Assembly (NCBI RefSeq): GCF_004010195.1
Contig: NC_057749.1
Span: 19,151,538-19,215,537 of the forward strand
Direction of reading: 5' to 3'
Source: Chiloscyllium plagiosum
Taxonomy: Eukaryota
DNA: 64,000 nucleotides
Below, one piece after another: positions 5,421 to 59,090 of this stretch (the stretch's first letter is position 1; every line of letters starts with the position of its first letter). Under the pieces are notes generated by a model. That model did not search any database. It was not told the DNA's origin and saw nothing but the letters and a program-made list of their open reading frames with translations. The position numbers were made by a program, and so were the translations under genes.

Positions 5421-5455
5421 ATCGACGTTTCGGGCATAAGCCCTTCTTCAGGAAT
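5421..5455 (-). ncRNA. Minimal hammerhead ribozyme motif (family A), core intact
   Basis: Reverse complement reads TTC-CTGAAGA-A-GGGC-TTAT-GCCC-GAAA-CG-TC-GA. Confidence 0.75.
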
Positions 5456-5568
5456 GAGGAAAGTGTGTCCAGCAGGCTAAGATAAAAGGTAGGGAGGAGG
5501 GACTTGGGGGAGGGGCGTCGGAAATGTGATAGGTAGAAAGAGGTCAAGGTGAGGGTGATAGGTCAGAC

Positions 5569-6171
5569 NNNNNNNNNNNNNNNNNNNNNNNNNNNNNNNN
5601 NNNNNNNNNNNNNNNNNNNNNNNNNNNNNNNNNNNNNNNNNNNNNNNNNNNNNNNNNNNNNNNNNNNNNNNNNNNNNNNNNNNNNNNNNNNNNNNNNNNN
5701 NNNNNNNNNNNNNNNNNNNNNNNNNNNNNNNNNNNNNNNNNNNNNNNNNNNNNNNNNNNNNNNNNNNNNNNNNNNNNNNNNNNNNNNNNNNNNNNNNNNN
5801 NNNNNNNNNNNNNNNNNNNNNNNNNNNNNNNNNNNNNNNNNNNNNNNNNNNNNNNNNNNNNNNNNNNNNNNNNNNNNNNNNNNNNNNNNNNNNNNNNNNN
5901 NNNNNNNNNNNNNNNNNNNNNNNNNNNNNNNNNNNNNNNNNNNNNNNNNNNNNNNNNNNNNNNNNNNNNNNNNNNNNNNNNNNNNNNNNNNNNNNNNNNN
6001 NNNNNNNNNNNNNNNNNNNNNNNNNNNNNNNNNNNNNNNNNNNNNNNNNNNNNNNNNNNNNNNNNNNNNNNNNNNNNNNNNNNNNNNNNNNNNNNNNNNN
6101 NNNNNNNNNNNNNNNNNNNNNNNNNNNNNNNNNNNNNNNNNNNNNNNNNNNNNNNNNNNNNNNNNNNNNNN
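5569..6171. other. Assembly gap (603 N)
   Basis: Run of N inside the Penelope-like element. Confidence 1.
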
Positions 6172-7367
6172 GCGGTCCTTGAAGAAGGGGGCCATCTGTG
6201 TTGTACGTATTTTGAACTGGTCCTCCTGGGAGCAGATGCGGCGGAGACTAAGGAATTGGGGGAATGGGATGGCGTTTTTACAGGGGTCAGGGTGGGAGGA
6301 GGTGTAGTCCAGGTAGCTGTGGGAGTCGGTTGGTTTGTAGTAGATGTCCGTGTTGATTCGGTCGCCTGAGATGGAAATAGAAAGGTCGAGGAAGGGGAGG
6401 GAGGAATCTGAGACTGTCCAGGTGAATTTGAGGTCGGGGTGGAAGGTGTTGGTGAAGTGGATGAACTGTTCAACCTCCTCGTAGGACCACGAGGCGGCGC
6501 CGATATAGTCATCGATGTAGCGGAGGAAAAGGTGGGGTTGGGGCCAGTGTAGTTGCGGAAGATGGACTGTTCCACATATCCTACGAAGAGGCAGGCATAG
6601 CTGGGGCCCATGCGGGTGCCCATGGCTACTCCTTTCGTTTGGAGGAAGTGGGAGGATTGGAAAGTGCCCTGGATGCTGCCTGACCTGCTGCGCTTTTCCA
6701 GCAACACATTTTCAGCTCTGATCTCCAGCGTCTGCAGACCTCACTTTCTCCTCAATGAATGTAGACAACAGATCAGGGTGAGTAGGTTTCCATTTTAAAG
6801 TCATACATGATTTATTTTCTCACAATATTTTTATTTTGTAGTAGTCATAAAGCTTTGCAATAATGTAAACGAGGAAAAGTAGCAGCAGAGGGTTTTATAT
6901 AACTCAGGCTGAGGCATACAAAATGGGTGAGCTATGGCTCAATTACTGATGAGAAGGTGAAATTGCAGTATGACAAGTTTATATAGACAGTTTGCATTAT
7001 AAATGTTGACATAAGAGTTCACAATGTAAATTTGCAAGAGATATTTAAAGGTAGAAGATCTTTTAGTATGTTACCAGGCATTTGATAGGTTAGGGGCAAA
7101 CACCAACTGTCACTTTTTTGTTTACATAGAATAATTCAGGATGGAAGGTCTGGTGTCATGATTCACTATTGTATATTTAGTGTTTACTTATCTTTACTGA
7201 GCTCATTTTAAATATAATCCAAAGCAATTTGTTTTCTTTCTGATGGTTGGTTATGCCAATTTATATGCTATTAAAAAAAAAACTCTCAGGGATTTGTTCT
7301 TGGTTATCTCAAAGCTTCAACCCTACTGAACAAGGGTTGAGATAGAGTTTTGGCATATTGCTTTGAG

Positions 7368-7850
7368 CACAAGTCAGGAGTGTGATGGAATACTCCCACT
7401 TGACTGACAAGTGCATCTCCAACCACACTCCAGCTCGATCCTATCAAGACAGGACAAGGCAGGTCACTTCATTGACACCTCATCCATGAGCTTCCACTCC
7501 TTCTACCACCAAATTTCAGTAGCAGCAGTGTCTATCATCTAAAAGATACACTGCAGAAAGTCCCCAAAGATTTTTAGACAGCACCTTCCAAACCCATGAT
7601 CATTTCCATCTCAAAGGACTTGGGCAACAGTTATAATGGGAACACCATCACTTGAGGTTTACCTCTTGCAATCTTGATCTGGAAATATATTGCTATTCTT
7701 CACTGTCATTAGGTCAGGATCCTAGAATTTCCTTCTTCACAGAATTAGGGATCAACCTACATCACATGGTTTGCAGTGATTCAAGAAGGCAGCCTTTCTT
7801 GAAAAGCTTCACCACCCCTTCTCCAGGAAAACTAGGGATCAGCAAAAGAT
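7368..7850 (+). mobile_element. Non-LTR retrotransposon 3' fragment (second copy at 33545-34050)
   Basis: CAAGTCAGGAGTGTGATGGAATACTC (QVRSVMEY, post-RT region) through ACTAGGGAT tail; colinear with 33545-34050. Confidence 0.7.
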
Positions 7851-8644
7851 GTTCATTTTAAATTTTTTAAATAAGGGCATTATCGGAATCAACTTCACAT
7901 TTATTCAACTGTTAGACTGATGAAGCTCCTGGACTTAATACAATCCATTCTACAGACAGAATGGGAATAGAGAAAACTCAGAGCAAATCCCACATTTAAT
8001 GCAAGCAGGATTTATAGAAGCAGCAACTGCATGAGAAATGTTCCAGTGAATGAGAAGCATTTCTTGTTGTTTGTGAACCTGTATGGTAGAGAATGAACAA
8101 TTCATGTTGAGATCCATGCCAGACTGTGTATCCATTGAATACTAATCAGTGTGCCTCATCCCCAGATCTCACCATAGCTTTTGGCTTCTTGGGGTTTGAT
8201 ATCCAGTGCTGGTGGGGATTTTTTTCACTCAGTTGCCTTTGGAAACAATATGTTGTGATGGGTCGGTAAATTCTTTGGTCTCTGGATCCCTGCGGAGAGT
8301 TTAATTTGTTCCTCATTACACCTGGCCAAGGTTGACTGATGTACACTGGGTAGTTCAGTTACGATCTAACCTTCTACATGTTCTTGAAATGACTATATCA
8401 ATTTGAGTCATTTGATACATTGCATATTGTTAGAGGGCTTTATACTGTTAGTGAAGCCACCTGCGGTCACTTGGGGAAAATTATGTAACAATGAGTTAAG
8501 TGCAGTGAACAGTGAAAACAGTTTGTGTTGCTTTCGGCCTTGTGTATTTCTTTGGCCCTAAAGAAATGTCGGTGTGTAGACCATACCTAAGTTAATAGTG
8601 TCTCTATACTCTGCCTTTCTCTAATTTTAGTGTGAGAAAAGGTT

Positions 8645-10108
8645 AGTCATCGAGTCTTACAGCATGGAGGCAAGCCCTTTGTCCCAAACTGGGCCATGCT
8701 GACCAAAATGCAAATCCCATTTCCCTGCACTTAGTCCATATCCTTCTAACCTTTCCTATCCATGTATTTGTCCAAATGCCTTATGAATATTATTAATGAC
8801 TCGACTCAACCACTTCCGCTCACAGCTTATTCCATATGCGGACCACCTTCTTTAAAAAAAAAGTTGCCCTCAAGTTCCCTTTTATTCTTTCCCCTCTCAC
8901 CTTGAACTGTTGCCCTCCAATCCTTGATTTCACAACCCTGGGAAAAAGACTGAATGCACTCACCCTATCCATGCCTCTAATAATCTTATACATTTCTGCA
9001 GGTTCCCTCCTCAGTCTTGTATGCTCTTGGACAGTCCTAGCTTGTCCAACCTCTCCCTGTAACTCAGACCCTTGCGTCTGGCAACATCCTTGTAAATTTC
9101 TTCTACGTTCTTTTCGGTTTAATAACATTCTTCCTATAGCCAGATGACCAAAACTGAATACAATCATCCAAGTACAGCCTCACCGTCCTGTATAATTGCA
9201 ACATAACTGCCCAACTTCTATACTGAATGCCCCGAATAATAAGGCCAGTGTGCCAAAACTGTCCTTCACTGCCCTGTCTACTTGTGACTACACTTTCAGA
9301 GGACTGTGAACCTGAACTCCAAGGTCCCTCTGTTCCACTGTACTCCTTAAGGCCATAAATTCATCATGAAACTCTGACCTTGATTTGACTTTACAAAATG
9401 CAAGACCTCACGCTTAACCATATTAAACTCTATTTGACATTTCTCGGCCCACTTGCTCAGCTGATCGAGGTCTTGTTGCAATTTCTGATAACCTCCTCAA
9501 TGTTCACAACTCCCTCTATTTTAGTGTCATCAGTAAACTCACTAATTATACCTTGTACATTCTCATCCAAATCATTGATATAGGTAACAAACAGCAAGGG
9601 GCCCAGCACTGACCCCAGAGGTACTGCACTAGTCACAGGCCTCCAGTCCGACAAGCATCCTTCCACAATTAACCTCTGGTTCTACCATCAAGCCAATTGT
9701 GTATCCAATTTGCCAGCTCCCCTTGGATTCCGTGCGATCTAACCTTCCAGAGCAGCCTACGATGTGCAACCTGATCAAATCCATATAGACTACGTCTACC
9801 ATCCTGCCCTCATCAACCTTTCTGGTCACTTCATCAAAGAACTCTAACAAATTTGATCTCCCACTCACAAAGCCATGCTGACTACTCCTAATCAAACCCT
9901 GTCTTTCCAAATGCATGTATATCTTATCCCTCAGAATCTTCTCAAGTGATGTACCTACCACAGATGTTAGGCTTATTGCTCTATAGTTCCCAGGCTTTTC
10001 TTTGCAGCCCTTCTTGAATGAGGGTATAACATTTGCTATTGTCCAGTCTTCCGGGACCTCACCTGTGGCTAACAATGATGCAAAGATATCAGCCAGGGCC
10101 CCTGCAAT
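8645..10108 (-). mobile_element. CR1/HER1 LINE, 5'-truncated, frameshifted ORF2
   Basis: VPEDWTIANVIPSFKKG..PGNYRAISLTSVVG, SQHGF, VPLGSVLGPLLF, FTDDTK; short-repeat tail at ~8645. Confidence 0.92.
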
Positions 10109-11454
10109 TGTAGACATTTTGATGGCAAACCCATTTGATTTAGGCCATATGAGCCCAGAAATTACTATTGGACATAAAATCATGATCATGAAATTGTAAA
10201 AGATTCTACTTCAAATCTGATTTTTCAATGCTGATTTCAAACATTTGTACTTACTTAAAAATTGGTCAGAGAATCCTTCTTAAAAATAAGCTGTTTCTGT
10301 TCTCTTAATGCTGAGCATGTTTTGGCCAGTGTATTATGGACCTAATTACTGTGAGGTGGATGATAGAGGTTTGGTTTTGGTCAGTTTCCACTTTCAGACA
10401 GGTGGACTGGTCCCTCTGGGAAGTACAAAGACAGTATGAGATTTGTTCTTTTTGACAGAGATTCGTGGTTGGGATTTGTTTATTTTAAAATCCAGTATCC
10501 CTCAAGTTATTGTTGCAGGTATTGATCACTAATTCATTCTAAATCTGTTCATTTCTCAATCTCAAGTTTTAGTCAAGGCATTGCTCAATTATAAATAAGC
10601 ATGAGTCAAACTAGTGGACAGAGAGATGTTACATATAAAAAGTAGCTTTCATCCTCCACTATTCCATTCAGACTTGACATTTTAGATGCTTTCTGAATAC
10701 AGGCAGTCCCTGGGTTTCAAATGGGTTCTGTTCTTGATTTCATTTGCAGATCGATTTGGATGTAAGTTGGAATACAATGCAGGACAATATAAAGTAGCTG
10801 CTTATAAGTACAGGAAGTGTTCATATGTCTGATCTTTAAAATTATATCCCTGTATGGGATTGCGTTTGTAAGTAACAGCATTCACAAGTTGATGTTCATA
10901 AATCATGGATCCCTTGTATGTTGAAATTTGAATGTGGTGGAACATTTTAATACATGGTAATCTGTCTCTGAGATTTCCTGAAGTAGTGTTAAGTACTAGT
11001 GATGTATAACAGGGAGAAGTGTGACTGCACAAACACACTCTCAGGAAATACATGATTGACCTGTATTCACCGTAGTAAGTTGTGCTTGATGGCAGGTGAT
11101 AATATACACAAGGAACACCCCAGAGAATATTATGGTATTTTGTGTCGTTTCAAAGAGAACAACCTGCTACTCTGCTGTAAGTGTCGTATTAGACTGTATC
11201 TATATTTAGTGTCACTAATAATTAGTATTCATATAGTAACTCTAACAATTTGCAATGTCGTTAAATATGTCCATTTAAAGTGTCTGTGCAGTAGCACAAA
11301 TTAAGTTTTTCCTCCCAAGCGTGACTTGGAAAGAAAATAAAACTTCATTTATATAGTGTATTCCACAATCTTCGGATCTCTAAGGGCTTTACAGTCAATA
11401 CTTTTGAAGTGTTGTCACGTATGAAAAACTTTAAAAGAAACATGAGCATCAATT

Positions 11455-11665
11455 TCTTTACATAGAGTAGTTAGTGTATAGAATGAACTTCCAGAGGAAG
11501 TGATGGATGTGGATACAGTTACAATGTTTAAAAGATATTTGGATAAGTACGTGAATAAGAAATAAAGGCCAAGCGCAGACAGGTGGGACCAGTTTAGTTT
11601 AGTATTATGGTCAGCATGGACAAGTTAGACCGAAGGGTCTGATTCCCTGCCATATGACTCTATTA
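11455..11665 (+). mobile_element. CR1/HER1 3' tail nested in a minus-strand Deu-SINE remnant (~11330-11720)
   Basis: GAATGAACTTCCAGAGGAAGTG...CCGAAGGGTCTG...TATGACTCTAT. Confidence 0.7.
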
Positions 11666-12229
11666 CTTTCTGAACTGCAGCAACCAGTTTACTAAGAACA
11701 AACTCTCAAAGACAATAATGAATCATGTGTTTGGCAAGTCACAGAGGGAGTTACATTGAGGTAAATGGAGATGTATGTCATGATTTCTGCAAACTATCTT
11801 AATGGTGTAATGCCTTGGTGCTTTCTTGTCTGTAATCATAGAGGGTGATATTCACCTGAGATAACATTTCACAGTCATCTGGGCAGGTAAGACTTGTTGT
11901 GAACATGCAGAGTAAATTCTTTATTGACAACAATGTGGAACAGTTCCTGTTAGCCTGTCATGCTCTTTCCTCCCTTCCCATTGTGGAGTCTAAAGACTTG
12001 GCCAAGAATTTTGCACTGAAATTTGAAGAGATAAAAATGGATGAAAACAATGAAGTGTAGTAATGTTAAAACAGTTGAATAATGGGGCAAAGAGGGAATG
12101 ATAGGTGCAGCATACTGTAGATCACACTGTCCAACAGAAGTCAATGGAAAATATTAAAGCAAACAGCAGCACTAGAAAGTCGAGATTGTAATGAGGGCTA
12201 GTTAGAACATGAGGGTATATTGACCAAAT

Positions 12230-12599: not shown

Positions 12600-14260
12600 T
12601 GTTAATATTGCTGCCGCATGGCGATATCATGTAAAAGTGCAGCATTAATTTTAAAATGATGCTGACAATATCCAGCTCTACCTCATCATTGCCTTTCTGG
12701 AATCCTCCACACTTGCTAAATTATCAGATTGCTTATCTGATATTCAGCACTGGATGAGCAAAAATTCCTTCAATTAAGTATTCAGAAGACTCTGTTTTCA
12801 GTGTCCATTCCAAACTCCCATTCCCTGGTTCATGAAAGTATTCCTCTCCCTGGCAACACTGAGACTAAACTATTCTTTCACAGTTTTGGTGTCATATTTG
12901 ACATCAGGACGACCTTCCAACTCATCCTTGCTAATGCTGAGGCCATCTAATTTCATCTCTCTGACATTGTCTGACATTGCCTCTGCCTCTGCTCACCTAT
13001 TGAAATAATTATCCATGCCTTTCTCACATTCTATCATTTGTAAACTTGAAATCACACAAAATTCCATTTCCCAGGTCGTGATTTATGTCAAGTCCTGTTC
13101 ATCTATCATTGCTGTGCTTGAAGACTTACATTAACACCTGATCAAGCACTACCTTGAAATTAAAATTCTTAACTTTGGTTTTCAAATTGCTTCATGGCCT
13201 TGCTCCTCTCTATCTCTATAATTTTGTTTCGATCCACAAACGTCTCAAATATCAACACCTCCTGGATTCCTGAGCATCCCTGATTTAAACAACACCCTCA
13301 TGTCATAGAGTCATAGAGATGTATAGCACTTTTTAAATGTTGCAATTGTACCAGCCACCACCACTTCCTCTGGCAGCTCATTGCATACATGTACCATCCT
13401 CTGTGTGAAAACGTTGCTCCTCAAGTCTCTTTTATATCTTTTCCCTTTCACCCTAAACCGATGCCCTCTAGTTCTGGACTCCCCCACCCCAGGGAAAAGA
13501 CTTTATCTATTTACCCCATCCATGCCCCTCATGATTTTATAACCTCTATAAGATCACTCCCTCAGCCTTGACACTCCAGGGAAAACAGCCCTAGCCTATT
13601 CAACATCTCCCTGTAGCTTAAATCCTCCAACCCTGGCAACATCCTTGTAAATCTTTTTTGAACTCTTTCAAATTTCACAACATACTTCTGATAGGAAGGA
13701 GACCAGAATTGCACACAGTATTCCAACAGTGGCTTAACCAGTGTCCTGTACAGCTGCAACATGACCTCCCAACTCCTGTAATCAATACTCTGACCAATAA
13801 AGGAAAGCATACCAAACACCTTCTTCACTATCCTACCTACCAGCGACTCCACTTTCAAGGAGCTATGAACCTGCACTCCAAAATCACTTTGTTCAGCAAT
13901 ACTCCCGAGGACCTTACCATTAAATGTATAAGTCCTGCTAAGATTTGCTTTTCCAAAATGTAGCACTCGCATTTATCTAAATTAAACTCTCCATCTGCCA
14001 TTCCACCACCCATTGGTCCATCTGTGGCTGTGTCTTCAGTTCCTGAGACCGCAAGCTCTGGAATTCACTCCCCATATGATTGTCCATCTATTCCTCAATT
14101 TCTTGCTTTAAGGCACTCTTAAAACCTACCTTTTTGACCAAAATTTTTTTCATTTAGCCTACCTTCTCCTTATGAGACTCTGTTATGTTTAGTTTAATCA
14201 TGCTCTTTGAAGCACTTTTGGGTCTTTTTAATTTTTCCTCATGACAATATAAATTTTTGT
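12600..14260 (+). mobile_element. Old L2-clade LINE 3' part, split by a CR1 insertion
   Basis: GCTGACAATATCCAGCTCTACCTC (ADD-QLYL-like), CLSDIQHWMSKN; resumes at ~14024 with CTCTGGAATTCACTCCC...CTTAAAACCTACC. Confidence 0.7.
13302..14023 (-). mobile_element. CR1/HER1 LINE 3' fragment
   Basis: ORF 13562-13972: LYRTLVKPLLEYCVQFWSP...ERVQKRFTRMLPGL; tail GTCATAGAGTCATAGAG. Confidence 0.92.
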
Positions 14261-18012: not shown

Positions 18013-18230
18013 AGTTTGCATCCCCGTGTCTGCGTGGGTTTCCTCCGGGTGCTCTGGTTTACTCCCACAGTCCAAAGATGTGCAGGTCAGGTGAATTGGC
18101 CATGCTAAATTGCCCGTAGTGTTAGGTAAAGGGGTAAATGTTGGGGAATGGATGGGTTACGCTTCGGTGGGTCGGTGTGGACTTGTTAGGCCGAAGGGCC
18201 TGTTTCCACACTGTAAGTAATCTAATCTAA
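17931..18230 (+). mobile_element. HE1/V-SINE, near full length
   Basis: tRNA-like head (B box GGTTCAATTCC), V domain, (TAATC)n tail; TAAAGYATGA flanks as likely TSD. Confidence 0.92.
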
Positions 18231-23971: not shown

Positions 23972-24255
23972 GAACATCAATTAGCCACTAAATGCCATGA
24001 CCAGCTGTTTCTAGAAGCATGACACTCGCTGACTCCATCAATAAACACATTGACCTCGACTGGATATACCGACCACTGCAACGAGCAACCAGAACCAGTA
24101 ACTGGAACCAGTGGGAACGAAACCAAATAAATTCCAACTGACATAGTAAAGCAGCGCTTCACAGGAGGCTCCACTGCACTGAGGGTGTCATCTAGAAAGG
24201 GGACAAAACATCTGTAAACCAGCATGGCAAACATATCCACAAAAACTGCGAGGTG
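23972..24255 (+). mobile_element. Penelope-like 3' fragment with degenerate hammerhead
   Basis: Related to 27709-28156 (ATAAACACATTGACCT..GA); CA-CTGAGGG-TGTCATCTAGAAAGGGGAC-AAAA-CA-TC-TG at ~24177-24214. Confidence 0.6.
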
Positions 24256-27012: not shown

Positions 27013-27341
27013 TTTCACTATCGGAGTAAGTGGCTAGCTATTTAAGACTGAGATGAGGAAAATTTTTTTCATTCCTAGGATTGTAGATCTTTATTGCAGA
27101 AAGTGTGGATCTTTGTAATTGAGAGAGAGATCAAGAGTTTTTGTGACTGAGATAATTTAGCAGTATGGAATAGTAAGGAAAGTTAGAGTTGATACAGAAG
27201 GTCAACCATGATCTTATGTGATGACAGATCAGACTTGAAAAGTACAGTTCCTACTTCTCAATTTCTAGAATGGGCTATTAACTTTCTGAATACCAATGCA
27301 TATTTTCCTCTGCTTCTTGCAAATGCGCTGAAACTAGTTAC

Positions 27342-27463
27342 CTGATGAAGCAGCAGTGCTCTGAAAGCTAGTACCTCCAAATAAACCTGTTGGACTATAA
27401 CTGTGAGATTTTTAACTTTGTCCCACCCCAGTCCAACACTGGCACCTTGACATCATGGCTTTC
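27342..27463 (+). mobile_element. Solo pLTR-like insertion, family B, starting at a hammerhead core; 8-bp TSD
   Basis: TAC-CTGATGA-AGCAGCAGTGCTCT-GAAA-GC-TA-GTA; CTAGTTAC at 27334-27341 and 27464-27471; homologous to 46841-46945. Confidence 0.75.
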
Positions 27464-27708
27464 CTAGTTACGTGATCAAGTCAAAGGTGACTTGCAATTG
27501 ACTTTCACAATGCTGATCTTGCTTAAGAAGAGCATTTTAAAACAATATTTCCACTTATTTAAAAACAAGTCTGCAAGCTAATTTTTGGTTCAGAAGCCAT
27601 ATTCCATCTGAATAAACCTGTATTTTGTCAGGCTTGAGTTGTACCAGTCAAAGGGGTTGCAGAATGCATACTAAGACTACACCCACTGCCACCTAAAATT
27701 TGATTTTT

Positions 27709-28156
27709 GGGCGTGGGTTTGCTCCCTGAGCTGGAAGGTTCATTTTCAGACATTTCGTCACCACACTAGGTAACGTCTTCAGTGAGTCTCCGAATGAAGT
27801 ACTGGTGGTGTAGCCAGCTTTCTATTTATATGCTTGGGTTTCCTTGGGTTGGTGACATCTTATCCTATGGTGATGTTATTTCTTGTTCTTTTTCTCAGGG
27901 GGTGGTAAATGGGATCCAAGTCAATGTGTTTGTTCATAGAGTTCCGCTTGGAATTATTGTGCGTACGTCTGTTCGGCTTGTCCTAGGATGGGTGTGTTGT
28001 CCCAGTCAAAGTGGTGTCCTTCCTCATCCATGTGTAAGGATACCAGTGAGAGTGGGTCATGTCTTTTTGTTGATGTTCATGTATCCTGTTGGCTAGTTTT
28101 CTGCCTGTTTGTCCAATGTAGTGTTTGTTACAGTTCTTGCAAGTTATTTTGCAATG
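27709..28156 (-). mobile_element. Penelope-like 3' end (GIY-YIG endonuclease remnant plus pLTR), family C
   Basis: CKITCKNCNKHYIGQTGRKLANRIHEHQ; possible TSD TTGATTTTT at 27700-27708 and 28157-28165. Confidence 0.85.
27746..27785 (-). ncRNA. Minimal hammerhead motif (family C)
   Basis: Reverse complement TCA-CTGAAGA-C-GTTACC-TAGTGT-GGTGAC-GAAA-TG-TC-TGA. Confidence 0.7.
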
Positions 28157-28371
28157 TTGATTTTTATATTGAACGTTCCTATCTTTGTGATGGGGCTGAT
28201 ACTTTCTCCCCACCTTTCAACCCAGAAAGAAATGTTGTAGATCAGTGGAGCGTGGTGACTTTCTAGGTTCAGGGTGGAAGAAGAGCCATAAGCAGTGCCC
28301 AAACACTTCATTTTTTGGCCTGGGAAATCAAAAGCTATGTTACTCTGGATCTCTCTGCAACTGTTTCACAT

Positions 28372-28451
28372 TCTGGATCAGTGGTGTTGGAAGAACACAG
28401 CAATTCAGGCAGCATCCGACGAGCAGCAAAATCGACGTTTCGGGCAAAAGC
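28372..28451 (-). mobile_element. pLTR fragment of a family-A relative, truncated within hammerhead stem II
   Basis: Reverse complement GCTTTTGCCCGAAACGTCGATTTTGCTGCTCGTCGGATGCTGCCTGAA. Confidence 0.7.
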
Positions 28452-28606
28452 ATTAAAGTAACAGCAAAGGCAGCATTTCTCTTTGGTAGTCCTTTGAAAT
28501 GAGGATGATCCTTGCTCATTGAATGAACCTGCTTGTGGAATTTTTTAATATGAGAAGATGCTGTTACACGACAGCTATCATACCATACTGACTAACTAAG
28601 AAACCC

Positions 28607-28741
28607 ATTCATTCCTGAAGAAGGGCTTATGCCCGAAACATCGATTTTCCTGCTCCTCGGATGCTGACTGACCTGCTGCGCTTTTCCAGCACCACACTTT
28701 TCAACTCTGGTCTCCAGCATCTGCTGTCCTCACTTTCTCTG
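28607..28741 (+). mobile_element. Solo pLTR (family A) with hammerhead motif and 13-bp TSD
   Basis: CTGAAGA(28615)-A-GGGC-TTAT-GCCC-GAAA-CA-TC-GA; AACTAAGAAACCC at 28594-28606 and 28742-28754. Confidence 0.88.
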
Positions 28742-29304
28742 AACTAAGAAACCCTCTCTGACTCTCAACTCCCTATCATAGGCATATTGGAAAACTTTCC
28801 TAGTTGATGGTCAACCTGTTTAATTGCATTTTGACACAATTCCTTTGGTCATCAAGTCCTGAGGTGGAACTTGATCCAAGAGCTTCTGGCTTTGAGGGAT
28901 TCCTTTGAACAAAGGAACCAGTTCTTCCTTTTTCAAAATTTTTACATCACAGTCAGTAATGCACATAAGACAACCCCAGCCACTCCCCCACAGTCACATG
29001 CCACTGAACACACAATGCAGTGACGTGATTATCTCCAGAAACAACATAATGTAAATCATCTCCTAATGGCAAGATCTGGTGTGAATTGTTTTTTTTAACT
29101 GTAGGGAGTAGTCAGAATTTCAGTGTTCTTATTGATTCTGAATAGGAGATGATAATGTAAATTTACTCTGAATTATAGGAGATGTGAATGTAAATTTTTT
29201 TACTTTGTACCTGTGATATAGAAACATACCACTCTACCCCCGGGGGCATCCAATTTCTTGAAGGTCAGCAGAGCAAAGTAACTCCTTAACATTCAACAAG
29301 AGCA

Positions 29305-30575
29305 GAATTGGGCATTTGGCCCATCAAGTCTGCTCTGCCATTTGATCGTGGCTCACATGTTTCTCAATCCCTTTCCCCTGCCCTCTCTATAGAATCTTTA
29401 ATCCCCTTTCTAACCAAGAAACTGCCTGTCTCTGTCTTAAATACAGTCAATAATTTAGCCTCCACAGCCTTCTGTGGCAATGAATTCCACAGATTCACAA
29501 CCCAGTGGCTGAAGAAATTTCTCCTCATTTCGGTGCTAAAGGGCTATCCCTTCACTCTGAGGCTACACCCTCAAACCCTAGTCTTTCCTACTGGTGAAAA
29601 TATTTTATCTGCGTCCACTCCATCCAGGCCTGTCTGTATTCTATATATTTCAATAAGATTCCCCCACCCCCATCCTTCTAAATTCCAAGTATAGACCTAG
29701 AGTCCTCGACCACTTCTGATATGACTAGTCTTTCATCCCAGGGATCATCCGTGTAAACAGCCTCTGGAAACCCTCCAAGCCATTGCATTCTTTATTAGAT
29801 ATGTGATCAATACTCCAAATGCAATCAGACCAAAGCCTTGTGTAACCTCAGTAGTATGTCCCTATTCTATATTCTAGCCCTCTCACAATGAATGCTAACA
29901 TCTCATTTGCCTTCCTAACTGCCAAGTGCACCTGCATAATAACCTTAACACTCTCATGAACTGGGACTCTGAAGTCCCTTTGTGCTTTTGATTTACAAAG
30001 CCTTTCTCCATTTAGAAAATAATCTGCCATCTCTATTCTTCCTACCAAAATGCATAACCCCTCATTTTCTCTCATTGTATTCCATCTATCATTTCTGTGT
30101 CCACTCTCCTAGCCTTTCAAGTCCTTCTGCAGCTTTCCACCTCCTCAAAACTAACTGCCCATTCATCTACCTTTATGTCATCTGCAAACTGAACAACACT
30201 GCCCTTAATTACTTTGTCCAGATAGTTAATGTATAACCTGAATAGTTGTGGTCCCAACACTGATCCTTGCGGAACTCCACTAGCCACTAGGCTGCTATCT
30301 TGAAAAAACACTTCTTTATCCCCCACTCTCTGCCTTCTGTCAGTCAGCGGACCCTCTATCCGTGCCAGTACCTTGCCCCTAACACCATGGCCTCTTATTG
30401 TATTGAGCAGTCTCCTGTACGGCACCTTGTCACAGACCTGGAAACCCAAGTAGGTCAAAACCACCTGCTGTCCTTTCTCTAATTTGCTCATTACTTCCGC
30501 ATGATCTCTCTGGACAAAGTCGTGCTGATTCAGATCTATCTTACCACACAGTTCCAAGTACTCTGCATTCTCATC
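29305..30575 (-). mobile_element. CR1 LINE (second subfamily), degenerate ORF2 3' half
   Basis: SGVPQGSVLGPQLF..YINYLD...FADDIK. Confidence 0.88.
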
Positions 30576-30992
30576 CTTAACAATGGACCCTCAAATTTTA
30601 CCGACAAGTACACTGACTTCATTTTTATTGATGGTTTGATTAACAGCCTGAAAATGTATGCTCAGTATCTTGTCTTCCTGGAAAGGTTTTCTGTACATTG
30701 TAAATGTCACCTATTTCAGATTGTGGCATGGAAATTGACATCAGTTGGTGTGAGATTTCTGAATTGTGATGAATGGGAAATGTTTTAGTACACTAGTAGA
30801 TCTCCTGTTAATATTGCTCATGGTGAGGCAGAGGAAGCTGTCTCAGAATAATGCTGTTAGCCTTTTGTGGGAAGTTGTTACAGGAAATAAAATAGAGGTG
30901 GAGTCTCGTTCCTGCTTTTGCATCCTCCTCCTGCCTCCATTTACATAGAACAGTACAACACAGGAACGGGCCCTTCGACCCACCGTGTCTGT

Positions 30993-31388
30993 TAGCGAAT
31001 TTTGAGAAGATTTGTACCTCAAGTTGAGGTTCTGGATATAAGTTTGCACACTGAGCTGGAAAGTTGGTTTTCAGATGTTTCGTCGCCATACGCGGTAACA
31101 TCATCAGTGAGCCTCCATGAAGCACTGGTGGTGTAGCCCGCTTTCTATTTATATGTTTGGGTTTCCTTGGGTTGGTGATGTCATTTGCTGTAACATCTGG
31201 AAAAAAAGAACAGGAAATGACATTACCCTAGGAAATGATGTCATTGGCCCTAGGAAACTCAAAGATATAATTAGAAAGTGGGCTATACCAGCAGTGCTTC
31301 TTTCAGAGGCTCACTGAAGATGTTATCTAGTATGGTAACGAAATGTCTGAAAATGAACCTTCCAGCTCAGCAAGCAAACCTACATCCA
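30993..31388. mobile_element. MITE-like element made of two inverted family-C pLTRs, nested in a CR1-type tail
   Basis: 31030-31165 is inverted relative to ~31265-31386; TSD CCACCRTGTCTGT at 30980-30992 and 31389-31401; hammerhead motifs at 31071-31110 (-) and 31311-31350 (+). Confidence 0.85.
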
Positions 31389-46800: not shown

Positions 46801-46840
46801 GCCACTTCTGAAATTGGGTGGAAATGCATATAAAAAAAGA

Positions 46841-46945
46841 TCGAGCCCTCAACAATCACCTTATGAAGGAGCGTCGCTCCGAAAGCTAGTGTGCTTCCAA
46901 TTAAATCTGTTGGACTATAACCTGGTGTTGTGTGATTTTTAACTT
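46841..46945 (+). mobile_element. Solo pLTR-like insertion, family B, hammerhead with core mutation; 12-bp TSD
   Basis: CAC-CTTATGA-A-GGAGC-GTC-GCTCC-GAAA-GC-TA-GTG (46857-46891); TATAAAAAAAGA at 46829-46840 and 46946-46957. Confidence 0.82.
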
Positions 46946-47279
46946 TATAAAAAAAGAGTTAGAGTACTTGGGATTTATTTTGGAGCTTTTTTGATTGCTC
47001 CACAATTTTATTTGGAAAATGAAGAGGTGTAAAATTTATGAAATATACTTTTTCAATATTTCATAACAGATCAAGTCACTTTTCAAGCACTTTGGAGTTT
47101 ACAACAATGTTGTTGGACTTTCATTAATTGGATCAGTATTATATAAAGATCCCAACAATCTTGATCCATGGACTGAATTGGATATAAATGTATACACACA
47201 AGCACCCCCTTCCAAAAAAAACTATTTAGTATGAAGGAAAGAATAACATAATTAAATATTCTTTGTTATCTGGTTTTAG

Positions 47280-52140: not shown

Positions 52141-52954
52141 GTAAAATATATTCTGGCCATGTGCTATAAGAAAGTTTCATTTGTACTGTACTATATATTG
52201 AAATCTTTTAAAGTTGCTTGTTTTAATATGCAACAACATATATATTTGGCAATAGTTTCACAAGATAAAATGACTGTATAAGTCCTTGCAATGCTTTCCG
52301 TATTAATAATTATTTGGTAGTACAGAACTTGAGTATTTCTGAAAAATGGCATTTTATTGAAGTTCTTCCTCTTTTACCATTAGGTCAATACGCAATTATA
52401 CCAATTGAAAGGAAAATTACATTTATGAGAAGAGAGTGCTGATTATTTGATGTGAACTCTGATTGACAAAGCATTGCCATGGGAATGCACAAATTAATGA
52501 TTGACCTTAACTTCTGAACTTCATTTACAGCCAGCTATTTCACACTTGCGCTATGTAAGAGCAACACAATTGGTGTTCACCATTAATAAGATGCTGCCAT
52601 GAAGCCAAAAAGACATTCTTCCTATCACACAAATGAGCACTGAATTTCAGTGCTGGTGTGATGCCATGCCATGGTGTCAGCCATACATCCCAAAAATTAG
52701 CAGATCATATCAAAACAATATATCAGTTCAGGTATTCACAACAAACAAGGTACTGACCCAACCTGCCCACATTGCAACACAAGGTCCAACAATGGATGTG
52801 ATTCTGCAACTGGACAACATTTCTGAATAATTCTGAGTGTGCACAGAATTTTGCAGGCAGCCAATTTAGGATTGTCATTCAGGCCCATGGTATGATGCGC
52901 TTACATAGACTGGAAGCTACGTGTATTAATTTTTTTATATGTTACACATATTTG

Positions 52955-53272
52955 GGTGGCATGTGGCTCAGTGGTTAGCACTGCTTCCTCATAGCACCAG
53001 GGACCCAGGTTCAAGTCCAGCCTCAGGTGACTGTCATTGTGGAGTTTGCACAATCTCCCAGTCTCTCTGCAGGTTTCCGCTGGGTGCTCTGGTTCCCTCC
53101 AACAGTCCAATCATGCTAAATTGTCCATAGCATAGGCTAAGGAGATTAGCAATGGTAAATTTGGGGTTATGGGGATAAGTTGAGGGTTTGGGTGGGATGC
53201 TCTTTGAAGGGTCAGTGCAGACTCGATGGGCCATATGACCTCTTTCTTCACTGTAGGGATTCTATGATTCTA
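52955..53272 (+). mobile_element. HE1/V-SINE
   Basis: GTGGCTCAGTGGTTAGCACTGC, GGTTCAAGTCC, V domain, tail GGGATTCTATGATTCT. Confidence 0.9.
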
Positions 53273-53384: not shown

Positions 53385-53572
53385 AATTTATCGAAGCTTG
53401 ACAGTTAATTATCATTCTTCGTGACAATCTCCTCTACCAATCAAGAGTTCACTTGCCAACCAATCAGTACTCTCCACTGATGCAGTATGAATATTGATTT
53501 GGTATTCTTATGAATTGTCCTGATGAGTGCAAGATGAAAATCTTCGACAAAATGTGTCTTTTTCTTCCAGCG
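53385..53572 (+). mobile_element. Short CCAAT-box-bearing repeat ending in a hammerhead (family D)
   Basis: Homologous in reverse orientation to 58905-59090 and partly to 52420-52510. Confidence 0.7.
53515..53550 (+). ncRNA. Minimal hammerhead motif (family D)
   Basis: TTGTC-CTGATGA-GT-GCAAG-AT-GAAA-ATCT-TC-GACAA: perfect 5-bp stem I closing a canonical core. Confidence 0.7.
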
Positions 53573-54866
53573 ACACTAAAGTTTCCACATTGTATTAAAA
53601 TGTGCATTGTATCTCGGTGCATAAATATCTCAAGTCTAGATATTGTCGTTAGCAATGTTAACAGATTTATACCCTCTGTTATTCTAATGCAGGAGCTTTT
53701 CCTACCAAACACCATTGAGAATAAGTTGGTTAGCATGTGTGAAAATGGCAGGCACAGGAATGTCCTGCAAACCTCCTAAACATGTGCTTGCCATCAATAA
53801 TTGCTCAGTTATAGTGTCTGCATAGTTATATAAAGCACTTGATAGAGAATTTGGTCTTTGTGCTAAAGTGACCAGTCCCAGCTGTGTTAGTGGCAGGATT
53901 CTGTTGCTGTCCTCTACATGACTGAATTGCAGAATGATTATAGCACATTATGGAGCTAGTCAGTGAGTCTGTCCAAATTTACCTGTTGCCCCTGAGAAGT
54001 GTCCTGGCTTCTTCCCATAGTCCCAAACACTCTCTCTCTCTCTCTTCCTTTTTAGATAACAAACCCTTTTGAATGCTGTGATTGAACCCTGTCTCTGCCA
54101 CATTGTCAGACAATGTATTTTAGATCTCAACCATTTGCTACATGAAAACATTCTCTTCATATCCCCATTGCACTTTTTGCTAATTCGCTCAAATCTGTGC
54201 CCTCTTGCTTCTAATCTTTCGTCTGTCAAATCTCATTTCAACCTTCTCTTTTCCAAGGTAGAGTCCCAACCTCTGCAGTTAATATATTTTAGCATTGTTC
54301 AGGCTGAAGATAACATTGTGATTTCCACTATTAGTTGCTGTCTACTGACTGTAAGGACACCTATGATCCTTGCAAAGCTAGTTCACAATTAAAGGAAGAG
54401 TTGGCAAAAGAGAGCCAATTCACACAAAATCCTCTGTGTCATATATTTTGTTCAGACCCTGGTACAAAGAACAGAAACTTGGGTCAGGGACTAGAGGGTT
54501 GTTAGTGCTTCTGAAATCACAACCCAGCAATAATCATATTTTTCAGGTGGAGGGAGAAAGCAGTAGAAAATATTTGAGAGGGCGCATCATAGATTGTAGA
54601 TATTCTGAAACAGGACTACCTTTCAAAAATAATTTTGAACATGCAGAAGGACAAAACATGGTATTAGAATGAGCTATTGGGCTGAATCCAAAGATCCATT
54701 ACTAAGGTTTCCTGCTTTTTTGCAATCCCCTTTCTTTGCCCCATCTCCCCAATCTGGAAGACAGAAAATGTCTCCCATAAGTACCAGTTAGAAACTTCTA
54801 GGAACTGTGTGGTTTTCCACAGTTTTTACTGTCCCTCTGGCATCAGTCTTGTGATTGAGAACTGCT

Positions 54867-56778: not shown

Positions 56779-57689
56779 GTATACAGCACATGTGCAACTA
56801 ATGTTTGTTTCTGGGAGAGGGGGAAAGCATCTCCAGCTGTGATTCAAGGTCCATTTGTCTACCATTTGTCTACTGTGATTATTTGTTCAGGACTGTTGAT
56901 CTGAGAATTTGATGAGAAGTGTGATGCAGTTTCAAAGATTGTGACTACACGTCACTGGGATTTTCTGACATTTTGCCTAGAAATTGCTGCCAGTAGTGGA
57001 AATTGTGACTATCTCTGTTTGTGAATCTCCCTTCCTTTCCCTTAGTATTTCTTCCTTAACTCCAGTTCACAATGCTATGTCCCACCCACTAGATTACACC
57101 CATATTATCCCGACTCAAGACTCCTGCAGTTAAACTAATTTCCTAACCAGGTCAATAATTTGCTTTTAATTCCAAGAGCTTTAGCCAACAGTCCATTCTT
57201 AAAGGAGTATTTTAACGTTTCAAGGAACAATGAAGCCTGTAACCTGTGGGAAGCCAGTTCTTGAGGCTTAGGCAATGTAAAGTTATTCAGTAAATAATTT
57301 TCCTGTAGCCCTTGGCAGGCGGTATTTTTGTGTCCTGTTGATAATGTCTGTTACCTGTCTGCAAAGTATATCCATTACAAACATTGGAGATTGGCTTAAT
57401 GTTCATTTCAGGCTAGTAACATGTGTTTGTGCATCACTGATCCTGCTAAATGTGTAGAAGGAAACTGCAACCTGTATTAATTTTGTAAGTGCATAGCTCA
57501 ACAGGAATCACCTTATACAGTTTCAATTCAGAATCCTGGCAAGTGAGATTTAATGCTTTATTTCACAGTTGGGGCAACATCATTGAGACATTAATGATAA
57601 ACTGTCCTTTGTTGGCAAGTTTAAATAACTTCTGAATTTTCTTTCATCTATTACAAAAATGCACCAACTGAAATATCTGGGTGTGTCAG

Positions 57690-58060
57690 TTTTGGTTCCT
57701 TGGTACTGAATCTAATGCTTGTGAATCCTCATTCTGGTGATTTGACCACACAATGCTGTGCTGGCATCTCCTGCAACCCTGAGGGAATGCTGCACCACTA
57801 GAGGTACCATTTGGGTGAGATTTTACTCCTCTTGGGCAGATGGAACCCTGTGCCACTCTTTTTAGGAGAACTATAGGAGGTCTCTTTGATTTTCAACTAA
57901 CATCACTAAAAATATAAGATCTTTAATGTCTGTGGGCTCTTATGAACAAATTAGTTGTTTCAATTCCAAACATTGCATCAGTGACCACATTTCAGAAGTA
58001 TTTAATTAGCACTTTGGAACATCCTGAGGCCATGAGAAGCATTGTATAAGTGAAGTTTTT
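57690..58060 (+). mobile_element. Deu-domain SINE; another remnant at ~59870-60100
   Basis: CTGAGGGAATGCTGCAC..AGAGGTACC...CATCACTAAAA...CACTTTGGAACATCCTGAGGCCATGA. Confidence 0.7.
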
Positions 58061-58201
58061 CTAGGAAAGTGAAATGGCTCAACATAGCACTAAGACAACA
58101 AATTGGATCTGGATTAAATTCTGTACTTATAAAATATAATTAAATCTTTTCAGTATATTTATGCCTAAATATTTCTCTTCTTTTATTTGTGGCATTTTTA
58201 G

Positions 58202-58781
58202 CGACAAGAACAGGCATCTGAGGATCACACACATGTGACATCTGGTTCTCACTTAACATTTGTTTACGAGGACAAGCAGATCATGGAGGATGCAGCCTCT
58301 CTCATTATTCATCATGTGAAGCGGCAGGCTGGGATACAGAAGGAAGATAAATACAAAATTAAACAGATAATTTATCACTTCATCCCAGATCTATTGTTTG
58401 CTCAGCGTGGCGAGCTGTCAGATGTGGAGGATGAGAAGGAAGATGAGGAGGATGAGGAAATGGACATTGACGAGAGCACAGGGACAACAAAAAAGCACAA
58501 TGGCATTGGCAGTAGCCCTTCCAAGCCAAAACTGATGTTCAGTAACACAGGAGCACAGAAACTGCGGGGCATGGACGATGTATATAACCTTTTCTTTGTG
58601 AACAATAACTGGTATATCTTCATCCGGCTTCACCAGATCTTGTGCTCACGACTTCTGAAGATCTACAATCAGGCAGAGAAGCAGATTGAAGAGGAATGCA
58701 GAGAGAGGGAACGGGAGATGCTGACAGGAAAGCGGGACAAAAGTGACAGTCCGGCTATTCAGCTACGACTGAAAGATCCGA
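58202..58781 (+). CDS. SIN3A: SIN3A coding exon 14 (RQEQASE...acidic tract...IQLRLKDP)
   Basis: TTTTTAG| acceptor, A|GTGAGT donor, 580 nt, phase 0-1. Confidence 0.95.
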
Positions 58782-58904
58782 GTGAGTATACACTGGAATC
58801 TCAGTAATCCTTCTCTCTTGGGAAATACTAAATACAGTCACTTTATTTTCCCACAACCAACAAACTGATAGTGATGGTCTGACAGGATCTTTTATGATAT
58901 ATTT

Positions 58905-59090
58905 TCTAATGCTAAAAAGAGACATGTTGTCAAAGCTTTTTGTCTAGCACTCATCAGAACAAACACAAGAATGCCAAATTGCAAATGATCGCAACAATTC
59001 ATACTATAGCAGGAAAAGGGTGCTGATTGGTTGGCAGGTAAACTTTGACTGGCGTAAGTACTGCCATGGAGAAAGCAATGATGCCCCATG
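58905..59090 (-). mobile_element. Family D repeat with degenerate hammerhead (58927-58962)
   Basis: Reverse complement TTGTT-CTGATGA-GT-GCTAG-AC-AAAA-AGCT-TT-GACAA. Confidence 0.7.

What the first reader, a model, noticed from the sequence alone, without database searches (positions are those of the whole stretch)
5421..58962. At least four distinct repeat families have seeded minimal hammerhead ribozymes across the SIN3A locus
Seen in sequence: the architecture [stem I]-CUGANGA-[stem II]-GAAA-[short palindrome]-UH-[stem I'] recurs about nine times. Family A: 5421-5455 (-), 28611-28644 (+). Family B: 27339-27373 (+), 46857-46891 (+). Family C: 27746-27785 (-), 31071-31110 (-), 31311-31350 (+). 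Family D: 53515-53550 (+), 58927-58962 (-). A degenerate relative lies at ~24177. Stem sequences differ completely between families while the core and pairing persist. Established knowledge: Penelope-like elements carry minimal type-I hammerheads in their pLTRs, with a palindromic helix III thought to work as a dimer. Inference: this genome hosts a diverse, dense set of ribozyme-bearing PLEs and non-autonomous derivatives. Families A and C are directly linked here to RT and GIY-YIG remnants; B and D are not.
Basis: partly seen in the sequence, partly recalled or inferred. Interest (0 to 1): 0.8.

Follow-up and report, generated by a model that had tools for sequence, protein, structure and literature searches.

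The report
Penelope-type minimal hammerheads in abundant repeats
The small self-cutting-RNA motifs listed here are real relics of Penelope-like jumping genes, a kind already described, although this genome carries them in unusually large numbers.

Summary

- **Families A, B and C** are genuine repeat families. Their consensus carries every hallmark of the minimal type-I hammerhead of Penelope-like elements (PLEs): CUGANGA and GAAA boxes, an unpaired base after A9, a G10.1-C11.1 pair and a palindromic helix III.
- **Family C** flanks a decayed RT plus GIY-YIG element in the window.
- **Family A** lies about 160 nt behind a PLE endonuclease-type reading frame elsewhere in the genome.
- **Family B** is a roughly 520-bp non-coding unit with PLE insertion hallmarks.
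- **Family D** has the core, a 5-bp helix I and a 6-nt palindrome, but only a 2-bp helix II, so it stays doubtful.
- **Genome-wide core matches:** A 164,658; B 28,020; C 12,270; D 529. Reversed-pattern controls gave 0.

Most window copies are mutated; only A1 keeps every feature. RNA reads show transcription but no pile-up of ends at the cut sites, and cleavage was not tested.

The kind is known (Cervera and De la Peña 2014), and this scan has noted such motifs in other genomes. What is new here is the copy number and the family set.

The parts
5317..5568 (-). Family A copy, long form. Hammerhead A1 at 5421-5455 keeps all features (CUGAAGA, unpaired A, GGGC/GCCC, GAAA, ACGU, C17). About 110 nt of element 3' UTR lie upstream of it, running up to the N run.
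5569..6171 (.). Run of 603 N directly upstream (element sense) of A1. Whatever lies there cannot be read.
6664..6758 (+). Inverted partner of A1. It is 5'-truncated (starts at reference position 68), so it has no hammerhead.
24105..24247 (+). Decayed family-C-like copy. The core is mutated (CUGAGGG; GACAAAA).
27339..27419 (+). Family B copy of an older subfamily. Hammerhead B1 at 27339-27373: core intact, helix II GCAGC/GCUCU (one mismatch, one G-U), helix III AGCU, helix I UAC/GUA.
27705..28154 (-). 3' pLTR / terminal unit of the family-C element. Hammerhead C1 at 27746-27785, TATAAA at 27830. Helix III has decayed to AUGU.
27986..28216 (-). GIY-YIG endonuclease remnant of the family-C element.
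   Evidence: PF01541, 20 bits, E 8.7e-4, below the 22.6-bit cut-off
28381..28754 (+). Family A inverted pair nested in the family-C element. The reverse arm 28381-28451 holds half a hammerhead. The forward arm 28609-28754 holds A2 at 28611-28644, whose helix III has decayed to ACAU.
30120..30590 (-). Reverse transcriptase remnant of the family-C element.
   Evidence: PF00078, 30.6 bits, E 3.5e-7
30811..31227 (-). 5' pLTR of the family-C element, with TATAAA at 31153 and hammerhead C2 at 31071-31110. The frame opened by the AUG formed by A9, the unpaired U and G10.1 stays open for about 97 codons, down to 30811.
31200..31388 (+). Inverted 5'-truncated family-C copy lying head to head with the 5' pLTR. 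Hammerhead C3 at 31311-31350.
46837..46950 (+). Family B short unit in an intron of the SIN3-type gene, in sense orientation. Hammerhead B2 at 46857-46891 has G5 changed to U. It keeps AUUAAA.
52300..52470 (-).
53431..53583 (+). Family D copy. The hammerhead-like D1 at 53515-53550 has CUGAUGA, GAAA, helix I UUGUC/GACAA, and a decayed helix III (AAUCUU).
58914..59052 (-). Family D copy. D2 at 58927-58962 has G12 changed to A and keeps the AAGCUU palindrome.

Best explanation
Families A, B and C are minimal type-I hammerhead motifs of Penelope-like retroelements. They sit in the terminal repeat (pLTR) or 3' module of the element. The window holds dead, mostly 5'-truncated insertion relics of three such families, plus one hammerhead-like family (D). 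Shown: the motif anatomy, the repeat families, their copy numbers, the link of C and A to RT/GIY-YIG reading frames, the PLE insertion hallmarks, and transcription. Inferred: in source elements the pLTR promoter (a TATA box 38-50 nt before the core in B, C and D) starts the RNA just upstream of the hammerhead. Two hammerhead copies (5' and 3' pLTR of one RNA, or two RNAs) then pair through the 4-6-nt palindrome that replaces helix III. The resulting dimer, probably helped by the element's own protein as in the Anolis element PAc, cuts after C17, A17 or U17. In family C the cut falls 25 nt behind the AUG that opens the element's reading frame. Cutting would therefore separate cap and start codon from the body of the RNA, either trimming longer-than-unit transcripts or switching the RNA from messenger to template. 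Copies in this window are not expected to act: only A1 keeps every feature.
For: Motif:
- Searches give A = AUUC-CUGAAGA-A-GGGC/UUAU/GCCC-GAA-ACGU-C-GAU, B = CAC-CUGAUGA-A-GGAGC/GUC/GCUCC-GAA-AGCU-A-GUG, and C = UCA-CUGAAGA-U-GUUACC/UAGUAU/GGUGAC-GAA-ACGU-C-UGA.
- All three show the four features that Cervera and De la Pena list as not imposed by their search: families with different stems, a base between 9 and 10.1, G10.1-C11.1, and a palindrome at helix III (PMC4209133, parts 1-2 read).
- Chance is excluded in the window and in the genome, where reversed patterns gave 0.

PLE link:
- C flanks RVT_1 and GIY-YIG remnants.
- A lies about 160 nt behind a reading frame. Part of that frame (residues 120-215, 96 aa) matches a 902-aa protein carrying PF00078, PF01541 and PF26215: E 1.1e-9, 46% identity over 81% of the region searched.

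Insertion hallmarks named in PMC8557442 (passages):
- Graded 5' truncation: B copies start anywhere from 1136 to 1503 of the reference.
- Head-to-head inverted partners: 5 of 8 anchored A loci plus both window copies, and 14 of 29 B loci within about 360 nt.
- Two alternative 3' ends 35-45 nt apart in A, B and C.
- A 13-bp target duplication in L001.

Other support:
- In family C, ATG at A9/unpaired U/G10.1 opens the frame. This matches PAc, whose ORF begins at stem II and whose cut site lies 26 bp after the start codon (PMC11167929, passages).
- One compensatory change in helix I separates B subfamilies: C-G in the young copies, U-A in B1 and one older copy.
- Non-CpG hammerhead positions are slightly better kept than flanks in C, 0.946 vs 0.886 over 29 copies.
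- Both A and B are in poly(A) RNA of the same species (run X9).
Against: - No Rfam hammerhead model matches even at E<=10 in 1.4 kb. Those models expect a helix III hairpin.
- Helix I is very short: A has 2 bp, a U-U mismatch, then 1 bp; B and C have 3 bp.
- The laid RNA reads show no place where many molecules begin or end (table 6: none). Depth continues across the B cut site, so most of those RNAs are uncut. The library is poly(A) single-cell and poorly suited to the question.
- Published work reports low in-vitro activity of such motifs (PMC4209133), no effect of hammerhead mutants on insertion in vitro, and no RNA-seq ends at the cut site in Anolis (PMC11167929).
- Genomic copies decay like neutral DNA: both boxes are intact in 9 of 29 C copies and 25 of 29 B copies.
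- RNAcofold puts the A dimer into another pairing (a GAAACGUCGAUUC near-palindrome) rather than the hammerhead dimer.
- B and D were never seen next to an RT or endonuclease.
- Pfam itself finds no domain in the L089 frames. The link for A rests on one homology search.
Confidence: 0.85

Rival explanations
1. The motifs are hammerhead-shaped but do not cut in vivo. The conserved module would instead serve as a binding or start site for the element's protein, or simply ride along with PLEs (the 'parasite of a parasite' idea).
For: No ends appear at the cut sites in poly(A) RNA. PAc hammerhead mutants insert normally in vitro, and no RNA-seq ends were found at the cut (PMC11167929). In-vitro activity is low (PMC4209133). 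PLE clades without hammerheads proliferate well (PMC8557442). Helix I is very short here.
Against: Three families with unrelated stems keep every catalytic base and the pairing pattern. The PAc hammerhead does cut with protein present, and C3G/G8C mutants behave as expected for a ribozyme.
Confidence: 0.3
2. The short A, B and D units are non-LTR retrozymes: tandem, circle-forming non-autonomous hammerhead elements, rather than truncated PLE ends.
For: B is a roughly 520-bp non-coding unit with a uniform 5' end in 3 copies. A 2026 preprint derives vertebrate retrozymes from PLE pLTRs (10.64898/2026.07.22.740005, abstract and results read).
Against: No head-to-tail array lies at any hammerhead site in the window. 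The sampled copies are dispersed, 5'-truncated and paired head to head. Long A copies run straight into an endonuclease-type reading frame.
Confidence: 0.15
3. Family D is not a hammerhead at all. It would be a promoter-bearing repeat (two CCAAT boxes, TATAAAT, a splice-acceptor-like U-rich CAG) in which CUGAUGA and GAAA occur by chance, or a box C/D-like RNA.
For: Helix II is 2 bp at best and there is no unpaired base after A9. Monomer folding does not give a hammerhead. There is a weak snoRNA-like match at 53468-53552: 26.2 bits against a 70-bit cut-off, E 2.6.
Against: Helix I is 5 bp, the best of the four families. Helix III is a 6-nt palindrome, AAGCUU. Among the 100 listed genomic copies, the dinucleotide at 11.1/12 reads TG 56, CA 30, TA 11, CG 3. 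That is the mark of an ancestral CpG, meaning an ancestral C11.1 pairing with G10.1 and an intact G12. D copies also have inverted head-to-head partners. The snoRNA match is far below threshold.
Confidence: 0.55

Closest known systems
Minimal hammerheads (min-HHR) in the pLTRs of metazoan Penelope-like elements (Cervera and De la Pena 2014, PMC4209133)
   Same: Core boxes; an unpaired base between A9 and G10.1; the G10.1-C11.1 pair; helix III replaced by a short palindrome; short helix I; several consensus families per genome; most copies solitary or in opposite-strand pairs 100-700 bp apart; only a few inside full elements.
   Different: Helix II is 4-6 bp here, against 7-8 bp in Schistosoma, and helix I is 3 bp, against 4-5. 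Copy number is far higher: about 205,000 core matches, against roughly 4,000 (coelacanth) and 9,000 (Xenopus) in that paper. The counting methods differ.
Hammerhead of PAc, the Poseidon-type PLE of Anolis carolinensis (Frangieh et al. 2024, PMC11167929)
   Same: In family C, as in PAc, the hammerhead lies in the pLTR, the element's reading frame starts at the beginning of stem II, and the cut site lies about 25 nt behind the start codon. The alternative 3' ends 35-45 nt apart match the 'tail' that PAc's internal start of reverse transcription explains.
   Different: Nothing was tested at the bench here. Families A and B have no long reading frame starting in the hammerhead: B stops after 9 codons and A after 27.
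Non-LTR retrozymes of animals (Cervera and De la Pena 2020, PMC7229834, search listing only; Li et al. 2026 preprint)
   Same: Short non-coding units with type-I hammerheads, related to PLE pLTRs and found in lower vertebrates.
   Different: Retrozymes are head-to-tail arrays with canonical hammerheads. The units here are dispersed, 5'-truncated and head to head, with minimal hammerheads.
Rfam Hammerhead_1 / canonical type-I hammerheads (newt satellite 2, Schistosoma Sm-alpha; named from recall)
   Same: Same catalytic core and type-I topology, and a dimer requirement when helix III is weak.
   Different: No helix III hairpin, no loop-loop contacts, and no match to the covariance models.

Membership tests
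PLE minimal hammerhead (min-HHR) | Catalytic boxes CUGANGA and GAAA at the right spacing | tested here: met
   7 of 9 window sites. Family level: A 25-mer 164,658 matches; B 25 of 29 copies; C 9 of 29 copies intact, with an intact consensus. B2 and D2 fail.
PLE minimal hammerhead (min-HHR) | Unpaired nucleotide between A9 and G10.1 | tested here: met
   A: A; B: A; C: U or C. It is absent in D.
PLE minimal hammerhead (min-HHR) | G10.1-C11.1 pair closing a helix II of 4 bp or more | tested here: met
   A 4 bp, B 5 bp, C 6 bp. In D there are only 2 bp, and C11.1 is only inferred from the CpG decay pattern. D does not meet this feature.
PLE minimal hammerhead (min-HHR) | Palindrome in place of helix III, followed by H17 | tested here: met
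   Family consensus: ACGU-C (A, C), AGCU-A (B), AAGCUU-U (D). In the window only A1, B1, B2 and D2 still hold the palindrome. The others lost it at the CpG.
PLE minimal hammerhead (min-HHR) | Lies in the terminal repeat of an element encoding RT plus GIY-YIG endonuclease | tested here: met
   C: in the window. A: in L089/L001, through homology to a 902-aa RVT_1+GIY-YIG protein, although Pfam on the broken frames finds nothing. B and D were never seen beside such a frame.
PLE minimal hammerhead (min-HHR) | PLE insertion signature: 5' truncation, inverted 5'-truncated partner, 30-40-bp tail | tested here: met
   A, B and C show all three. For D only inverted partners were seen.
PLE minimal hammerhead (min-HHR) | Mg2+-dependent self-cleavage, as a dimer or with element protein | not testable with these tools
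   Needs a bench assay.
PLE minimal hammerhead (min-HHR) | RNA ends at the predicted cut site in vivo | tested here: inconclusive
   Run X9: 3,841 reads laid, and no place where many molecules begin or end. The library is poly(A) single-cell and is not made to catch 5'-OH ends. Run X10 gave 0 reads.
Rfam hammerhead families (types I, II, III, HH9, HH10) | Match to the covariance model | tested here: not met
   No hammerhead match at gathering score, nor at E<=10 on 64 kb or on 1.4 kb.
Non-LTR retrozyme | Head-to-tail tandem array of hammerhead units | tested here: not met
   Tandem Repeats Finder finds no array at any site in the window. Sampled loci show inverted pairs instead. The whole genome was not scanned for arrays.

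The most novel reading that the evidence does not exclude
In this genome the hammerhead-bearing end module of Penelope-like elements has become a SINE-like super-family of more than 200,000 copies, roughly one per 17 kb and an order of magnitude above published vertebrate counts. The hammerhead also occupies an LTR-like 'R' region. It lies between a TATA box 38-50 nt upstream and, in family B, a poly(A) site that is actually used, 12-15 nt after an AUUAAA and about 30 nt after the cut site. Every full transcript would then carry the ribozyme at both ends. The two ends could pair as the active dimer, which would release and perhaps circularise exactly one unit.
Probability: 0.2. Interest if true: 0.55.

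Novelty: new member of a known kind. Interest (0 to 1): 0.3.

Why it matters
It adds a vertebrate genome in which PLE hammerhead modules reach very high copy number. Two of its families (A and B) are young, with copies 94-99% alike, and are transcribed. That offers good natural material for the open question of what PLE hammerheads do: there are many near-identical copies, a family whose cut site lies just behind the start codon, and a family with a mapped poly(A) site. For gene annotation it matters that sense-oriented B copies carry a working poly(A) signal inside introns. One such copy, B2, sits in the SIN3-type gene.

Tried and rejected
- **Rfam:** scans at gathering score and at E<=10, on 64 kb and on 1.4 kb, gave no hammerhead.
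- **First descriptor:** my first version, without the unpaired base, found nothing and was replaced.
- **Pfam on L089:** the broken endonuclease-like frames gave nothing at E 0.01 or at E 10.
- **BLASTP:** comparing those frames with the window's GIY-YIG remnant gave nothing significant, E 0.37. A second comparison failed on my wrong coordinates and was not repeated.
- **Folding:** RNAfold/cofold of monomers and dimers gives the hammerhead fold only for the C monomer. The dimers fold otherwise, so thermodynamic folding neither supports nor excludes the dimer model.
- **Run index:** no RNA holder listed. Run X10 laid no read.
- **Further families:** a search in 273 kb of sampled DNA found only A, B and C, but that sample was chosen through these same families.
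- **Flank comparison for B:** the conservation figures for B flanks are biased, because truncated copies contribute non-homologous columns. I do not use them.
- **Literature:** a search for sharks, Penelope and ribozymes found no paper on hammerhead-bearing PLEs in cartilaginous fishes in the held library. Supplements of PMC4209133 and of the preprint, which may list further species and counts, were not read.

Full report
**1. What is in the window**

Window self-comparison confirms that they belong to four repeat families:

| Family | Matching stretches | Identity |
|---|---|---|
| A | 28609-28754 vs 5457-5317 | 81.6% |
| B | 46858-46946 vs 27340-27419 | 77.5% |
| C | 31042-31178 vs 27717-27855 | 86.3% |
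| C | 31200-31383 vs 27896-27713 | 83.2% |
| C | 31033-31388, inverted on itself | 73.6% |
| D | 58914-59052 vs 53563-53437 | 72.3% |

- Seven of the nine sites hold both catalytic boxes. B2 has CUUAUGA and D2 has CAAAAAG in place of GAAA.
- A strict descriptor of my own finds 2 sites against 0 hits in 200 dinucleotide-preserving shuffles.
- A relaxed one, allowing one mismatch per stem, finds 5 sites against 0 hits in 300 shuffles. Bare box pairs number 16 against 5.5 +/- 2.3.
- Rfam finds no hammerhead at gathering score or at E<=10. That is expected for motifs without a helix III hairpin.
- The 'degenerate relative' is a decayed family-C-like copy at 24105-24247.
- A third, decayed D copy lies at about 52300-52470 on the minus strand.
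- A SIN3-type gene runs on the + strand from about 34.9 to 61.2 kb (PAH, Sin3_corepress, Sin3a_C). Only B2, D1, D2 and the third D copy lie inside it.

**2. Anatomy of the motifs**

The family consensus of A to C, read from genomic copies, is:

- A: AUUC-CUGAAGA-A-GGGC/UUAU/GCCC-GAA-ACGU-C-GAU
- B: CAC-CUGAUGA-A-GGAGC/GUC/GCUCC-GAA-AGCU-A-GUG
- C: UCA-CUGAAGA-U-GUUACC/UAGUAU/GGUGAC-GAA-ACGU-C-UGA

All three have an unpaired base after A9, a G10.1-C11.1 pair, a 4-nt palindrome where helix III should be, and a short helix I. These are the traits that Cervera and De la Peña give as marks of PLE minimal hammerheads not imposed by their search pattern (PMC4209133, parts 1 and 2 read). The stems share no sequence between families.

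State of the window copies:

- A1 is fully intact.
- A2, C1, C2 and C3 have lost the palindrome at its CpG (ACAU or AUGU).
- C2 has one helix II mismatch.
- B1 has one mismatch and one G-U pair in helix II.
- B2 has lost G5.

**3. Family C is a Penelope-like element in place**

On the minus strand lie, in order:

- a pLTR with TATAAA (31153) and hammerhead C2;
- an open frame;
- an RT remnant at 30120-30590 (PF00078, 30.6 bits);
- a GIY-YIG remnant at 27986-28216 (PF01541, 20 bits, just under the cut-off);
- a second pLTR with TATAAA (27830) and C1.

C3 is the inverted, 5'-truncated copy that typically sits head to head with the upstream pLTR (PMC8557442, passages).

The AUG formed by A9, the unpaired U and G10.1 is in frame with an open stretch of about 97 codons, running down to 30811. 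In other genomic copies the same frame reads MLPSMVTKRLKMNLPAQ..., often closed by a CpG-derived stop. This matches the Anolis element PAc, whose ORF begins at stem II and whose cut site lies 26 bp after the start codon (PMC11167929, passages). In family C the distance is 25 nt.

Most genomic C copies are roughly 450-nt terminal fragments, corresponding to window 28154-27705.

**4. Family A**

- The 25-base core occurs 82,477 + 82,181 times with at most 2 mismatches in the 3.56-Gb assembly. The reversed pattern occurs 0 times.
- The common unit is about 110-150 nt, starting 4 nt before the core.
- 5 of 8 anchored loci, both window copies and L090 are head-to-head inverted pairs.
- L001 shows a 13-bp target duplication.
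- A few copies, A1 among them, extend upstream.
- In L089/L001 such a copy follows, after about 160 nt, a reading frame broken by a frameshift. Its last part matches a 902-aa protein with RVT_1, GIY-YIG and PF26215 domains (E 1.1e-9, 46% identity) and a 486-aa PF26215 protein (E 1.8e-25, 69%).
- Pfam on the broken frames finds nothing. The link of A to a PLE therefore rests on that one homology search and on the insertion signature.
- In the window, A2 is a separate inverted-pair insertion nested between the RT and endonuclease remnants of the C element.

**5. Family B**

- The 29-base core occurs 14,139 + 13,881 times; the control gives 0.
- Copies are 94-98% alike.
- The full unit is about 520 bp. 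5' ends are graded from reference position 1136 to 1503, and three copies start at 1136.
- 3' ends fall at about 1613 or, in 7 of 28 copies, at 1644-1657.
- 14 of 29 loci hold an inverted partner within about 360 nt.
- No coding partner was seen.
- Both boxes are intact in 25 of 29 copies.
- B1 belongs to an older subfamily. Its helix I pair 2.3-1.3 is U-A instead of C-G, a change on both sides that is shared in part by one other old copy.

**6. Family D**

- The repeat is real: 1,933 first-look candidates, and 267 + 262 core matches against a control of 0.
- It is old (about 77% alike) and short (150-280 nt), with inverted partners and no reading frame beside it.
- The consensus has two CCAAT boxes, TATAAAT, then GUC-CUGAUGA-GUGCAAGAY-RAAA-AGCUU-U-GAC.
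- Helix I is 5 bp and the palindrome AAGCUU is 6 nt. Helix II is at most G-C plus U-A, and there is no unpaired base.
- In the 100 listed genomic copies, by my hand tally, the dinucleotide at 11.1/12 reads TG 56, CA 30, TA 11, CG 3. That points to an ancestral CpG, meaning C11.1 and G12 were once in place.
- I rate D as hammerhead-like and unproven.

**7. Numbers in context**

The four patterns sum to 205,477 matches, or one per 17.3 kb. The window is therefore only modestly enriched. Published counts are about 4,000 for the coelacanth and 9,000 for Xenopus (PMC4209133). For retrozymes the maximum is 14,255, in the axolotl (preprint 10.64898/2026.07.22.740005, results read). The methods differ, so the comparison is rough.

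**8. RNA**

- No indexed holder of the stretch is on record as RNA.
- Two raw-read poly(A) single-cell runs of the same species label were laid on L090:405-2100, which holds a near-consensus A copy and a B copy.
- X9 gave 3,841 reads. X10 gave none.
- Depth over A is 241-286 and 418-455 in the two directions. Over B it is 314-1,066 against 35-192. Over the unique DNA between them it is 0-18.
- B is strongly biased to the direction expected for sense RNA.
- Poly(T) loose ends at 1931 and 1934 (415 + 335 reads) place a poly(A) tail 12-15 nt after the AUUAAA of the B unit. That is about 30 nt after the predicted cut site and about 30 nt before the end of the DNA copy.
- The tool lists no place where many molecules begin or end. 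This library therefore gives no sign of cutting.
- The same negative result was reported for Anolis (PMC11167929).

**9. How it most likely works**

Shown here: the motif, the families, the PLE context of C and A, the insertion signature, and transcription.

From the literature:
- Such motifs cut weakly as dimers (PMC4209133).
- PAc's hammerhead cuts only with the element's protein and is not needed for insertion in vitro (PMC11167929).
- The alternative 3' ends fit the 'tail' left by internal start of reverse transcription (PMC11167929, PMC8557442).

Inferred:
- The pLTR promoter starts the RNA just before the hammerhead. A TATA box lies 38-50 nt ahead of the core in B, C and D.
- Two copies pair through the palindrome.
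- The cut removes cap and start codon (in C) or trims longer-than-unit RNA.

**10. Verdict**

This is a correct spotting of a known kind. Families A to C are new members of the PLE minimal hammerhead class and D is doubtful. The copy number and the family B poly(A) site are the only points beyond what is in print. Earlier notes of this scan describe the same kind in other genomes; none concerns this genome.

Noticed in passing
L090:1931-1934 (family B copy on the minus strand); same element as window 46837-46950: Poly(A) RNA reads carry poly(T) loose ends here (415 + 335 reads). Family B RNA is therefore polyadenylated 12-15 nt after its AUUAAA, inside the element and about 30 nt before the end of the DNA copy. 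B2 sits in sense orientation in an intron of the SIN3-type gene and keeps AUUAAA.
   Followed up: partly
window 27830, 31153, 31266; family consensus of B, C and D: A TATAAA(T) box lies 38-50 nt ahead of the hammerhead core in families B, C and D. D also has two CCAAT boxes. pLTR-initiated RNA would therefore begin just upstream of the ribozyme.
   Followed up: partly
window 5569-6171; also L007 upstream of its second A copy, and L091: Runs of N lie next to repeat copies: upstream of long family A copies in the window and in L007, and about 0.9 kb upstream of the family D copy in L091. Either these are assembly gaps, which are common at complex inverted PLE insertions, or the stretches are withheld. 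I could not tell which.
   Followed up: no
window 63524-63997, 43262-43742, 24547-24841, 23231-23580, 13331-13905, 8645-9346, 11423-11673, 19903-20209: Another abundant repeat family is present, with at least eight copies in the window at 67-87% identity. It is unrelated to the hammerhead families. A separate RT remnant lies at 9460-10210 (-) (PF00078, 23.9 and 19 bits).
   Followed up: no
window 17730-18013: A 146-bp unit is repeated twice in tandem (93% matches). Related copies lie at 20210-20497, 22350-22700, 52954-53267 and 1990-2259.
   Followed up: no
family A consensus, GAAACGUCGAUUC: The stretch from G12 to helix I of family A is itself a 13-nt near-palindrome (10 pairs, 3 mismatches). 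RNAcofold prefers it to the hammerhead dimer, so it may compete with the active fold.
   Followed up: partly
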